NCBI GenBank assembly: GCA_009914755.4
Contig: CP068257.2
Span: forward strand, 7,072,001 to 7,136,000
From: the human T2T-CHM13v2.0 reference genome, Homo sapiens
DNA: 64,000 bases
Direction: 5' to 3'
The stretch's first letter is position 1; every line of letters begins with the position of its first letter. Under the pieces are notes generated by a model that saw only the letters and a program-made list of their open reading frames with translations, searched no databases and was not told the origin of the DNA. Positions 8,701-10,385 of the stretch are shown piece by piece. The translations under genes and the position numbers were made by a program.

Positions 8701-9204
8701 TGCAGAAACTTCTAAGAGAAATTAGAGGGAACAGAGCCAAGCTCATTTATTGAGATTAAGATAAACTTGATATCAAAACTAGACTTGTCACAGAGAGTGC
8801 AAGAGGCGGGAGTTATCTCCCAAATCCAAGTTCTGCGTCTGGATTATTAGACATGGCCTCACTGTCCTTGATCTGCAAGGAATTTATACTGATTAGAGCA
8901 TTAGTAAAACCTATGTTCTATTCATCATGAAAAGTCATTTTTTAAAGATTCCAGAATTATTAGAGGCAGAAACAAATTGAAAGGTTGTACACTTACACCT
9001 GCTGTTTGAAAAACACAACTTACCAAAGCCAAACAGAAGTAGTATGTAAACTCCTATGTCTAGTAATAGGCAGAATCCATAATTTAAAACTTTCCCACAA
9101 AAACAATTCCCAGTTCCTGATGGCTTCACTGGTGAATTCTTCAATGAAAGGGAAAAGTAACACCAACACTACAGAATTTCTTTTTTAATTTCAGGGACAG
9201 ATTT

Positions 9205-9330
9205 TTTTTTTTTAATCTTAGTGACAGAGTCTCACTATGTTGCCCAGGCTGGAGTGCAGTGGCTACTGACAGTCACGTTCCAGTGATCCTCCCACCTCAG
9301 CCTCCGGAGTAGCTGGGACTACAGGCTACA
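9205..9330 (-). mobile_element. Alu fragment inside inverted-repeat arm 1
   Basis: Poly-T then GTGACAGAGTCTCACTATGTTGCCCAGGCTGGAGTGCAGTGG...CCTCAGCCTCCGGAGTAGCTGGGACTACAGGC. Confidence 0.7.
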
Positions 9331-9335
9331 GAAAC

Positions 9336-9633
9336 TTTTTTTTTTTGGGACAGAGTCTCGCTCTGTCACCCAGGTTGGAGTGCAGTGGCGCAGTCTCGGC
9401 TCACTGCAAACTCCGCCTCCCAGGTTCACGCCATTCTCCTGTCTCAGCCTCCCTGGTAGCTGGGACTACAGGCACCCACCACCACACCCGCCTAAATTTT
9501 TTTTTGTTGTATTTTTAGCAGACACGGGGTTTCACCATATTAGCCAGGATGGTCTCGATCTCCTGAACTCGTGATCTGCCCGCCTTGGCCTCCCAAAGTG
9601 CTGGGATTACAGGCGTGAGCCACCGCGCCCGAC
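9336..9633 (-). mobile_element. AluY-like young Alu inserted into arm 1 of the inverted duplication
   Basis: Near-consensus: GGGACAGAGTCTCGCTCTGTCACCCAGGTTGGAGTGCAGTGGCGCAGTCTCGGCTCACTGCAAACTCCGCCTCCCAGGTTCACGCCATTCTCCTG...GGCGTGAGCCACCGCGCCCGACC. Flanking direct repeat cAGAAAyTTTT. The copy of this locus in arm 2 (rc 9862-9900) lacks the Alu, so insertion happened after the duplication. Confidence 0.9.
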
Positions 9634-9802
9634 CAGAAATTTTAAGAGAACAAAAATAAAGGGAACAGAGCCATGCTCATTTTTTGAGATTACAATAAAC
9701 TTGATACCAAAAGTAGTCTAAAAAATTACAAAAAGTAAAACTACAGGCTAATCAGTCACATGAACCCGAGCCCAAAAGTCATTTTTAAAAACAGCACACT
9801 AA

Positions 9803-9861
9803 GCAGGGCACAGTGGTTCATGCCTGTAATCCCAGCACTTTGGGAAGCCAAGGTGGGAGAA
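9803..9861 (+). mobile_element. Alu 5' fragment in the spacer between the inverted arms
   Basis: gggcacagtggttcatgcctgtaatcccagcactttgggaagccaaggtgggagaagtgcttgagctcaggagttc, truncated at 9861. Confidence 0.6.
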
Positions 9862-10385
9862 GTGCTTGAGCTCAGGAGTTCCCTTTATTTTTGTTCTCTT
9901 AAAAGTTTCTGTAGCCTATAGTCCCAGCTACTCAAGAGGCTGAAGTGAGAGGATAACTGGGACGTGACTGTGAATAGCCACTGCACTCCAGCCTGGGCAA
10001 CATAGTGAGACTCTGTCCCTAAGATTTAAAAAAAAATCTGTAATGTTGGTGTTATTTTTTCCCTTTCATTGAAGAATTCACCAGTGATGCCATCAGGAAC
10101 TGGGGATTGTTTTTGTGAGGAAGTTTTAAATTATGGATTCTATTTATTTCATAAATATAGGGGTATACATACTTCTTATGTTTGGTTTTGGTAAGTTGTG
10201 TTTTTCAAACAGTAGGTATACAACCTTTTAATTTGTTTCTGCTTATAATAATTGTGGGATCTTTTTTTAAAAAAAAGATTGATTTTCATGAATAGAAGAT
10301 AGGTTTTACTAATACTACACTCAATGTTAATTCCTTGCAGTTCAAGGACACTGAGGCCCCGTCTAATAATACAGAAGAAATACTA
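9862..10385 (-). repeat. Arm 2 of the inverted duplication (includes an Alu fragment at 9893-10030 in + orientation)
   Basis: Reverse complement matches 8840-9336 and 9634-9668; starts with 'ccctttatttttgttctcttaaaagtttctgtag', the rc of 9634-9668. Confidence 0.75.

What the first reader, a model, noticed from the sequence alone, without database searches (positions are those of the whole stretch)
8840..10385. About 1.5-kb palindromic (inverted) duplication with an AluY inserted in only one arm
Arms 8,840-9,668 and 9,862-10,385 are reverse complements over ~530 bp, each including an Alu fragment and unique sequence, separated by a ~190-bp spacer. A further partial direct copy of the inner end lies at 8,634-8,790. 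A near-consensus AluY with target-site duplication cAGAAAyTTTT sits in arm 1 at 9,336-9,633 but is absent from the homologous site in arm 2 (9,862-9,900). This dates the inversion-duplication as older than the AluY. Such Alu-bounded inverted repeats with short spacers can form hairpins and are known sources of rearrangement. Its place in a pericentromeric flank fits the segmental-duplication-rich nature of these regions.
Basis: seen in the sequence. Interest (0 to 1): 0.5.

Follow-up and report, generated by a model that had tools for sequence, protein, structure and literature searches.

The report
Old local inverted duplication in repeats
A roughly 510-base piece of decayed LINE-1 plus an Alu fragment was copied backwards into a neighbouring Alu about 215 bases away tens of millions of years ago; it is a real but ordinary relic of faulty DNA repair or replication.

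Summary
Arm 1 (8824-9666) and arm 2 (9878-10389) are reverse complements: 501 aligned pairs, 89.4% identity, and 87.7% over the 342 non-Alu pairs (blastn E about 6e-144). The spacer is 211 nt.

The "unique" sequence is decayed LINE-1 ORF2, about residues 392-505 of ORF2p. Both arms carry the same 5'-truncated old Alu at the same site with the same TACAGA duplication, so they are one duplicated composite and not two independent repeats.

Arm 1 is the original, because it runs colinearly with LINE-1 into the spacer. Arm 2 is a 513-nt insert that splits a host Alu cleanly between consensus positions 80 and 81. It has no target-site duplication and no poly-A, and shows a 4-nt GTTC overlap at the inner junction.

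This geometry fits fold-back (snap-back) priming, or an intra-fork template switch, at a break in the host Alu.

The Alu at 9340-9634 is absent from arm 2, which keeps an intact empty site, so it inserted later. It is about 9% diverged from an AluY consensus, not near-consensus. The partial direct copy at 8634-8785 is real and older than the inverted copy.

With a 211-nt spacer and about 11% divergence, cruciform fragility is unlikely. A single transcript across it would fold into a long imperfect hairpin. No function is indicated. Low interest.

The parts
8634..8702 (-). Copy 3, Alu part: a fragment of the old Alu right arm ending at the same Alu/L1 junction as in the arms
   Evidence: It keeps consensus-like CAGCCTTGAACTCCTGG..., which both arms lack.
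8703..8785 (+). Copy 3, LINE-1 part: a direct partial copy of 9327-9339 plus 9644-9719, matching ORF2p about 500-519
   Evidence: 82.8% over 87 columns; 88.4% over 129 including the Alu part; z 3.0.
8824..9175 (+). Arm 1, outer part: decayed LINE-1 ORF2 sequence, the source copy
   Evidence: 87.7% to arm 2; colinear with ORF2p from about residue 392, z 13.
9176..9203 (+). 28-nt tandem duplication present only in arm 1, so it arose after the inverted duplication
   Evidence: family D12; 28-nt gap in arm 2.
9204..9326 (-). Old 5'-truncated Alu (right-arm fragment plus T-run) inside arm 1. Flanked by TACAGA at 9170-9175 and 9327-9332.
   Evidence: 91.3% identical to its copy in arm 2.
9330..9339 (+). 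Left target-site duplication of the younger Alu (AGAAACTTTT), at a TTTT/AA-type site
9340..9634 (-). Full-length AluY-lineage element with a short T-run (9340-9346). Inserted in arm 1 only.
   Evidence: 91.1% to AluY, 89.3% to AluSx, 83.2% to AluJo; consensus sequences from memory; sub-threshold Metazoa_SRP match 9345-9492, minus strand.
9635..9643 (+). Right target-site duplication of the younger Alu (AGAAATTTT)
9644..9666 (+). Arm 1, inner end (LINE-1). GAAC at 9663-9666 is the proposed fold-back priming site.
   Evidence: 32/32 identity at the inner end.
9667..9801 (+). Spacer, part 1: LINE-1 ORF2 continuing colinearly from arm 1 (to ORF2p about 545). Not duplicated.
9802..9881 (+). Spacer, part 2: host Alu 5' piece (consensus 2-80). 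The last four bases, GTTC (9878-9881), overlap the donor homology.
9882..10394 (-). Arm 2: the 513-nt inverted copy inserted in the host Alu. It consists of L1 (9882-9913), the old Alu copy (9914-10036), TSD TCTGTA (10037-10042) and L1 (10043-10394). It holds the empty site for the younger Alu at about 9898-9912.
   Evidence: (reverse complement aligns to ORF2p 431-497, z 8.8).
10395..10625 (+). Host Alu 3' piece (consensus 81/82-282 at 10396/7-10596) plus A-rich tail

Best explanation
**What it is.** This is a neutral structural relic. An ancient LINE-1 ORF2 fragment already carried a 5'-truncated Alu, and a second (host) Alu lay about 135 nt further on.

**Proposed mechanism (inferred).**
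1. A break or a stalled nascent 3' end arose in the host Alu between consensus positions 80 and 81.
2. The plus-strand 3' end (...GGAGTTC-3', 9878-9881) folded back and annealed to GAAC at 9663-9666 on the same strand, leaving a 211-nt loop.
3. A polymerase then copied the plus strand leftwards from 9662 to about 8819.
4. The new 513-nt strand was unwound and joined to the other side of the break with little or no homology, and the complementary strand was filled in.

An equivalent switch of the nascent strand to the opposite template within one replication fork gives the same product.

**Result.** An inverted duplicate whose spacer is exactly the stretch between the priming site and the break. 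No bases were lost from the host Alu, and there is no target-site duplication or poly-A.

**Later changes.**
- An AluY-lineage element inserted by ordinary L1-endonuclease target-primed retrotransposition at AGAAACTTTT/AAGAG in arm 1.
- A 28-nt tandem duplication arose in arm 1.
- The arms diverged to 89%.

**Earlier event.** A separate duplication left the partial direct copy at 8634-8785.

**Timing.** From the divergence and assumed primate neutral rates, the inverted copy dates to very roughly 25-60 million years ago.

**Shown versus inferred.** Shown: the anatomy, the direction of copying, the relative order of events, and the junction sequences. Inferred: the enzymology, break versus fork, and the absolute dates.
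For: **Duplication of a composite.** The arms are 89.4% identical over 501 pairs, including 342 non-Alu pairs. Both carry the same truncated Alu at the same L1 position, with the same TACAGA duplication and the same roughly 21-nt shortfall against the Alu consensus.

**Arm 1 is the source.** With the Alus excised, 8861-9789 aligns colinearly to ORF2p 392-545. The score is 129 against 46 +/- 6.4 for shuffles, and the alignment runs through the arm end into the spacer. The reference was validated against PDB 8uw3_A.

**Arm 2 is an insert.** The host Alu maps to consensus 2-80 at 9803-9881 and to 82-282 at 10397-10596. It is continuous apart from an ambiguous C, with no flanking duplication or A-tail.

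**Priming junction.** The host Alu ...CAGGAGTTC and the donor complement ...GGCTCTGTTC share GTTC. A random junction shows 4 nt or more of microhomology about 1.6% of the time.

**Geometry.** Orientation, donor only 211-214 nt away, and the insert abutting the break all match the experimentally defined local fold-back inversion model at double-strand breaks. In that model there is Pol delta synthesis from inverted microhomology and capture by end joining with 0-5 bp of homology, and "longer inverted repeats are formed" (PMC11724301).

**Order of events.**
- The empty site in arm 2 dates the younger Alu as later.
- Copy 3 retains Alu bases that both arms lack, and differs at 7 of the 76 three-way sites where the two arms agree with each other. 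This places it earlier.
Against: - The event is old, so today's junction bases may not be those at the time of the event. The 4-nt overlap could be chance or secondary.
- The yeast fold-back insertions run from 2 to about 150 bp, mostly under 14 bp. This one is 513 nt with a 211-nt loop, which needs long resection or a processive BIR-like synthesis.
- A break cannot be told apart from a stalled fork.
- The outer junction shows no clear homology.
- No reason is visible for synthesis to stop near 8819.
- No orthologous or pre-insertion allele could be retrieved, so nothing confirms the filled and empty states.
Confidence: 0.7

Rival explanations
1. Two independent repeats in opposite orientation (two Alus, or two LINE-1 fragments of one subfamily) that merely look like a palindrome.
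For: Both arms consist entirely of interspersed-repeat sequence, L1 ORF2 plus Alu. The window carries many Alus in both orientations that match each other at 70-88%.
Against: - The non-Alu parts are 87.7% identical over 342 pairs, although each arm is only about 35-40% identical to L1HS ORF2p at the protein level.
- Both arms have the same truncated Alu at the same L1 site, with the same TACAGA flanks and the same internal deletion.
- No other L1 piece in the 29.8 kb matches them.
Confidence: 0.02
2. Arm 2 is an RNA-templated insertion. Either a local antisense transcript was retro-copied by the LINE-1 machinery, or an endonuclease-independent capture of cDNA occurred at a break.
For: The insert is a clean, discrete piece placed within another repeat. 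Its minus-strand 3' end is A-rich (...AACAAAAATAAAGGGAAC).
Against: - There is no poly-A tail and no target-site duplication, and the host Alu is not cut at a TTTT/AA-like site.
- This model gives no reason for the donor to lie only 214 nt away, or for the insert's inner end to overlap the break by GTTC in exactly the fold-back register.
Confidence: 0.08
3. Recombination between inverted Alus (non-allelic homologous recombination or single-strand annealing between inverted repeats) produced the structure, as the phrase "Alu-bounded inverted repeat" implies.
For: Inverted Alu pairs are present. The old Alu (minus strand) in arm 1 faces the host Alu (plus strand), and the younger Alu (minus strand) faces the host Alu 5' piece at 88% over 52 nt (pair I10).
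Against: - Recombination between inverted repeats inverts the intervening segment. It does not duplicate it.
- Neither junction joins Alu to Alu at homologous positions. The left junction joins host Alu position 80 to L1 sequence, and the right junction joins L1 to host Alu position 81.
- The younger Alu arrived after the event.
Confidence: 0.04
4. One complex multi-template-switch event (MMBIR/FoSTeS type) created both the direct copy at 8634-8785 and the inverted arm at the same time, rather than two separate events.
For: - Three copies of one Alu/L1 junction lie within 1.3 kb.
- The left edge of copy 3 lies in or next to the Alu bases missing from the arms.
- Arm 2's outer end (about 8819) lies close to the right end of copy 3.
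Against: - Both arms share a roughly 21-nt shortfall and a 4-nt difference that copy 3 lacks.
- Copy 3 is more diverged: 84-89% identity, against 92.5% between the arms over the same columns.
- This pattern fits two events in succession. Gene conversion between the arms could mimic it, and the counts are small (7, 5 and 1 sites).
Confidence: 0.15

Closest known systems
Local fold-back (snap-back) templated inverted insertions at double-strand breaks (yeast; PMC11724301)
   Same: - An inverted copy of sequence immediately beside the break, with the donor retained.
- Priming at short inverted microhomology, with a loop between the priming site and the break.
- The second junction has 0-5 bp of homology.
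- The net result is a longer inverted repeat.
   Different: - Here the insert is 513 nt and the loop 211 nt, against mostly under 14 bp (up to about 150 bp) and a 41-nt loop in yeast.
- This is a germline-fixed primate event tens of millions of years old.
- The enzymes cannot be tested.
Replication template-switch models (FoSTeS/MMBIR) and fold-back inverted duplications with a disomic spacer (PMC3907307)
   Same: Inverted duplication separated from its source by a single-copy spacer, with microhomology at the junction.
   Different: The clinical fold-back duplications are kilobases to megabases long, usually terminal, and involve dicentric intermediates. This one is a 0.5-kb interstitial insertion that returns at once to the original template.
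Catalogued human inverted duplicates (about 4.3 million with arms of 10-10,000 nt and spacers up to 1 kb; PMC5398296)
   Same: Arm length, spacer length and identity all fall within that catalogue's search parameters. The element lies in repetitive DNA. The RNA is predicted to form a stable hairpin.
   Different: Nothing distinctive. Most catalogued cases are much shorter or arise from independent transposon insertions, whereas this one is a true segmental copy with resolvable junctions.
Fragile inverted Alu pairs and quasi-palindromes (Lobachev and colleagues; PMC10164571)
   Same: Inverted repeat arms a few hundred bases long that include Alu sequence.
   Different: Fragility in duplex DNA requires near-identical arms and spacers of about 20 bp or less. 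Here the spacer is 211 nt, divergence is about 11%, and one arm is interrupted by about 330 nt. Interaction would be expected only in long single-stranded DNA.

Membership tests
Alu SINE, AluY lineage (element at 9340-9634) | Dimeric 7SL-derived element of about 282 nt with an A-tail | tested here: met
   It aligns to consensus positions 1-281 with a 7-nt T-run on the plus strand. There is a sub-threshold Metazoa_SRP match at 9345-9492 on the minus strand, E 9.8e-11.
Alu SINE, AluY lineage (element at 9340-9634) | Target-site duplication at a TTTT/AA-type L1 endonuclease site | tested here: met
   The flanks are AGAAACTTTT and AGAAATTTT. The empty site in arm 2 reads AGAAACTTTT/AAGAG.
Alu SINE, AluY lineage (element at 9340-9634) | Subfamily diagnostic positions (Y rather than S or J) | tested here: inconclusive
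   The best match is AluY at 91.1%, against AluSx at 89.3% and AluJo at 83.2%. It has the Y-type GATCACGAG.TCAGGAGATCGAGACCATCC and GAATGGCGTGAACC.
LINE-1 ORF2-derived sequence (non-Alu part of the arms and spacer) | Colinear similarity to LINE-1 ORF2 protein beyond chance | tested here: met
   - PDB 8c8j_A is the only hit to the three-frame translation, E 0.0086.
- tblastn gives colinear HSPs covering ORF2p 434-545.
- Frameshift-tolerant alignment gives z 13 for arm 1 plus spacer and z 8.8 for arm 2.
- The reference was checked against 8uw3_A.
LINE-1 ORF2-derived sequence (non-Alu part of the arms and spacer) | Assignment to a named L1 subfamily (L1M, L1P and so on) | not testable with these tools
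   No Dfam, Repbase or RepeatMasker library is available. Only about 35% amino-acid identity to L1HS with many stops and frameshifts is seen, which indicates an old element.
Fold-back or template-switch templated inverted insertion | Inverted copy of nearby sequence with the donor retained and the insert abutting the break or stall site | tested here: met
   The donor is 8819/8824-9666. The insert is 9882-10394, directly after host Alu position 80. The loop is 211 nt.
Fold-back or template-switch templated inverted insertion | Microhomology at the priming junction in the fold-back register | tested here: met
   GTTC is shared by the host Alu 3' end and the donor complement. The chance of 4 nt or more at a random junction is about 0.016. 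Caveat: the sequence has decayed since the event.
Fold-back or template-switch templated inverted insertion | No target-site duplication and little or no loss at the recipient site | tested here: met
   The host Alu is continuous at consensus 80|81, with at most one ambiguous C.
Fold-back or template-switch templated inverted insertion | Dependence on Pol delta/BIR-type synthesis and end joining | not testable with these tools
   This is a historical germline event. The enzymology is known only from yeast genetics (PMC11724301).
Retrotransposed copy (target-primed reverse transcription) for arm 2 | 3' poly-A tail and flanking target-site duplication | tested here: not met
   Neither is present at 9881/9882 or at 10394/10395.
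Alu-Alu recombination product | Junctions between two Alus at homologous positions (chimeric Alu) | tested here: not met
   Both junctions join the host Alu to L1 sequence. The two host Alu pieces are the halves of one element.
Cruciform-prone palindrome or fragile inverted repeat | Highly similar arms with a very short spacer (about 20 bp or less) | tested here: not met
   The spacer is 211 nt, identity is 89.4%, and arm 1 is interrupted by 304 nt plus 28 nt. Thresholds are from PMC10164571.
DNA transposon or MITE with terminal inverted repeats | Terminal inverted repeats of transposon origin flanked by a target-site duplication | tested here: not met
   The arms are L1 ORF2 plus Alu. The outer ends (8824 and 10394) have no matching flanking duplication.

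The most novel reading that the evidence does not exclude
The locus could be a well-preserved natural example showing that fold-back templated insertion, known at 2-150 bp in yeast, works at the half-kilobase scale in the primate germline. Its product could also be transcribed into an imperfect double-stranded RNA of about 430 bp beside pericentromeric satellite, and so serve as an ADAR-editing or small-RNA substrate.
Probability: 0.1. Interest if true: 0.35.

Novelty: already known. Interest (0 to 1): 0.15.

Why it matters
On its own it matters little. Inverted duplicates of this size class are catalogued in the millions in the human genome, and every component is a standard repeat.

Its modest value is as a clean textbook case.
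- Both junctions, the direction of copying and the order of five events can be read directly from one sequence: old Alu, direct copy, inverted copy, younger Alu, 28-nt duplication.
- The geometry matches an experimentally defined repair mechanism.

For annotation purposes, it shows that the apparent "unique" flanks are LINE-1. It also shows that the structure is not a likely fragile site in duplex DNA.

Tried and rejected
1. **External copies or orthologues.**
   - An exact 31-mer from the spacer found nothing in metagenome contigs.
   - Three window ORFs spanning informative parts found no encoding contigs.
   - The other collections hold phage, plasmid, E. coli or prokaryote sequence and were not used.
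   - So no comparative dating or empty-site allele could be obtained.
2. **LINE-1 on the far side of the host Alu.** The idea that LINE-1 continues at 10597-10999 came from reading by eye. The frameshift-tolerant alignment does not support it (z -1.2).
3. **LINE-1 upstream.** An apparent ORF2p 360-376 match at 8303-8359 is not significant (z -0.6). The segment 8258-8633 has no similarity to the arms.
4. **Alternative reading of the arm outer ends.** The idea that 8824-8900 continues copy 3 (ORF2p after residue 545) rather than upstream ORF2 was considered. The alignment places 8861 onward at ORF2p 392 onward. The segment 8786-8860 stays unresolved.
5. **Rfam.** Only sub-threshold 7SL and Alu-derived miRNA-family matches were found, all on the Alu parts. 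Nothing matched the L1 parts.
6. **Assembly artefact.** Rejected, because the arms differ by about 11%, by several indels and by a whole Alu.
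Full report
**Setting.** The window is primate-type DNA.
- Positions 29756-63999 are one (TGGAA)n array, which is pentameric pericentromeric satellite.
- The first 29.8 kb carry about 5.5 kb of Alu-like sequence.

**Observation.** The repeat finder lists a chain of inverted pairs between 8824-9339 and 9901-10389, and between 9637-9666 and 9878-9907.
- blastn joins the first set into one 523-column match, E 5.8e-144.
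- The gapped alignment was printed base by base.
- After removing the interrupting Alu and one copy of its target-site duplication, one local alignment covers 8824-9666 against 10389-9878.
- That alignment has 501 aligned pairs at 89.4% identity.
- By segment the identity is 87.7% over the 342 non-Alu pairs of the outer part, 91.3% over the 127-nt shared Alu fragment, and 32/32 at the inner end.
- The spacer is 9667-9877, which is 211 nt.
That test fails, so the duplication is real.
- In a self-comparison of the 29.8 kb, the only non-Alu matches are this inverted pair and the short direct copy.

**What the "unique" sequence is.**
- A three-frame translation of arm 1 plus spacer hits a single PDB entry, the human LINE-1 ORF2p reverse-transcriptase core 8c8j_A. 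The E-value is 0.0086, and FPQKQFPVPDGFTGEFF aligns to LPTKKSPGPDGFTAEFY.
They match 8uw3_A from end to end with two differences.
- tblastn with that protein gives weak but colinear matches:

| Window positions | ORF2p residues | Strand |
|---|---|---|
| 8725-8778 | 502-519 | + |
| 9008-9142 | 434-481 | + |
| 9641-9712 | 496-519 | + |
| 9730-9789 | 526-545 | + |
| 10112-10029 | 468-496 | - |

- A frameshift-tolerant protein-DNA alignment written for this purpose gives:

| Segment | ORF2p residues | Score | Shuffle null | z |
|---|---|---|---|---|
| Arm 1 plus spacer, Alus excised | 392-545 (window 8861-9789) | 129 | 46 +/- 6.4, max 66 | 13 |
| Arm 2 reverse complement | 431-497 | 90 | 43 +/- 5.3 | 8.8 |
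| Copy 3 | 500-519 | 44 | 32 +/- 3.9 | 3.0 |

- The arms are therefore decayed LINE-1 ORF2, at about 35-40% amino-acid identity to L1HS with stops and frameshifts. That indicates an old element, but the subfamily cannot be named here.

**Why it is nevertheless one duplicated segment.**
- Both arms contain the same 5'-truncated Alu, a right-arm fragment with its T-run.
- It sits at the same LINE-1 position and is flanked by the same TACAGA duplication.
- Both Alu fragments share the same shortfall of about 21 nt against the Alu consensus.
- Independent L1 copies would share none of this.

**Which arm is the copy.**
- Arm 1 is colinear with LINE-1 on through the spacer to about 9801.
- Arm 2 is embedded in a single Alu. 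Positions 9803-9881 align to Alu consensus 2-80 and positions 10397-10596 to consensus 82-282.
- Joined, the two pieces read ...GGAGTTC|CAAGAC..., against consensus ...GGAGTTCGAGAC.... Nothing is lost, and at most one ambiguous C is gained.
- There is no poly-A and no target-site duplication.
- Arm 2 (9882-10394, 513 nt) is therefore an insertion into a pre-existing host Alu.

**Junctions and mechanism.**
- At the inner junction the host Alu ends ...GCTCAGGAGTTC and the donor complement reads ...GGCTCTGTTC|CCTTTATT. The four bases GTTC are common to both.
- A random junction shows 4 nt or more of overlap about 1.6% of the time.
- On the plus strand, the 3'-terminal GTTC (9878-9881) is complementary to GAAC at 9663-9666.
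- If the 3' end folds back and pairs there, extension copies 9662 down to about 8819. It appends exactly the sequence seen at 9882-10394, in the observed orientation, and leaves 9667-9877 as the loop.
- The outer junction (GGATAGTGG|CAAGAC) shows no convincing homology.
- This is the architecture described experimentally for local fold-back inversions at double-strand breaks in yeast (PMC11724301). There, one end primes Pol delta synthesis at inverted microhomology, the product is unwound, and the other end captures it by end joining with 0-5 bp of homology, so that "longer inverted repeats are formed".
- A nascent-strand switch to the opposite template within one fork (FoSTeS/MMBIR type) gives the same product and cannot be told apart from it.
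- The yeast events are much shorter, at 2 to about 150 bp. The scale here, 513 nt with a 211-nt loop, is the main reservation.

**The younger Alu.**
- Positions 9340-9634 form a full-length Alu on the minus strand. It has a 7-nt T-run and flanks AGAAACTTTT and AGAAATTTT.
- Arm 2 keeps the uninterrupted AGAAACTTTT/AAGAG, a typical L1-endonuclease site.
AluSx scores 89.3% and AluJo 83.2%. It is not near-consensus, and an AluSc/Sp-type intermediate is not excluded.
- Jukes-Cantor distances:

| Comparison | Distance |
|---|---|
| Arms, all sites | 0.114 |
| Arms, non-Alu sites | 0.134 |
| Younger Alu to consensus, all sites | 0.095 |
| Younger Alu to consensus, non-CpG sites | 0.063 |

- The arm distances correspond to 0.057-0.067 per arm. 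The two events are therefore of similar age.
- Assuming neutral rates of about 1-2.2e-9 per site per year (my knowledge, not tested here), that is roughly 25-60 million years.

**The third copy.**
- Positions 8634-8785 repeat, in direct orientation, the end of the old Alu, the identical Alu/L1 junction (GGC|TGCAGAAAC), and about 85 nt of L1.
- It is 88.4% identical to arm 1 over 129 pairs.
- Over the 76 columns shared by all three copies it is 89.5% identical to arm 1 and 84.2% to arm 2, whereas the arms are 92.5% identical to each other.
- It keeps consensus-like Alu bases (CAGCCTTGAACTCCTGG...) that both arms lack.
- Taking the Alu consensus as outgroup, copy 3 split off before the inverted copy was made. 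Gene conversion between the arms is the alternative explanation for this pattern.
- How copy 3 arose is not resolved. It could be the remnant of a tandem duplication or another templated insertion. Its left edge lies in or beside the bases missing from the arms, which I cannot explain.

**Consequences today.**
- As a single RNA strand, 8824-10389 is predicted to fold with 432 arm 1:arm 2 pairs at -866 kcal/mol, against -390 +/- 10 for shuffles.
- The younger Alu additionally pairs with the host Alu 5' piece (62 pairs).
- In duplex DNA, cruciform-driven fragility falls steeply with spacer length and divergence. It drops about 40-fold between spacers of 12 and 20 bp (PMC10164571).
- With a 211-nt spacer, 11% divergence and about 330 nt of interruption, the element is expected to be stable, except perhaps inside long single-stranded DNA (same paper).
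- Inverted duplicates with arms of 10-10,000 nt and spacers up to 1 kb number about 4.3 million in the human genome (PMC5398296), so the class is commonplace.
- Rfam finds only sub-threshold 7SL and Alu-derived miRNA-family matches on the Alu portions.

**Limits.**
- No orthologous or paralogous sequence could be retrieved with the available collections.
- The filled and empty history and the dates therefore rest on this one sequence.

**Verdict.** The structure is an ordinary, old, local inverted templated insertion within interspersed repeats. It is neatly resolvable, but it is neither novel nor evidently functional.

Noticed in passing
window 29756-63999: About 34 kb of (TGGAA)n pentamer satellite (6851 copies, 68% matches) with strong GC and AT skew. 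It starts abruptly at about 29756, after non-satellite sequence that ends ...CCTTCTC.
   Followed up: partly
window 17400-18900: CpG-island-like block: GC 0.55-0.78 and CpG observed/expected 0.68-0.91 over about 1.2-1.5 kb, with long overlapping ORFs on both strands. It could be a promoter close to the satellite boundary.
   Followed up: partly
window 5996-6209 (minus strand): A much better preserved LINE-1 ORF2 C-terminal fragment (ORF2p 1204-1275, tblastn E 5e-17). It is a different and younger L1 than the one in the arms.
   Followed up: no
window 13037-13131: Near-perfect tandem duplication of a 47-nt unit (2.0 copies, 97% matches).
   Followed up: no
window 9579-9630 vs 9806-9857: The younger Alu (minus strand) and the 5' piece of the host Alu (plus strand) form a second, nested inverted pair: 88% complementary over 52 nt, 175 nt apart. 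They pair with each other in the predicted RNA fold (62 pairs).
   Followed up: partly
window 9176-9203: 28-nt tandem duplication of the T-run and Alu 3' end, present in arm 1 only and therefore younger than the inverted duplication.
   Followed up: yes
window 8634 (left edge of copy 3) and 9258-9278 / 9960-9980: The left breakpoint of the direct partial copy lies in or next to the roughly 21 nt of the old Alu that both arms have lost. Whether this is coincidence or a shared breakpoint is unexplained.
   Followed up: partly
window 9803-10021 (plus strand): Rfam's Metazoa_SRP model gives one sub-threshold match that bridges the host Alu 5' piece and the old Alu fragment of arm 2. The insertion has created a pseudo-dimeric Alu-like arrangement.
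   Followed up: no
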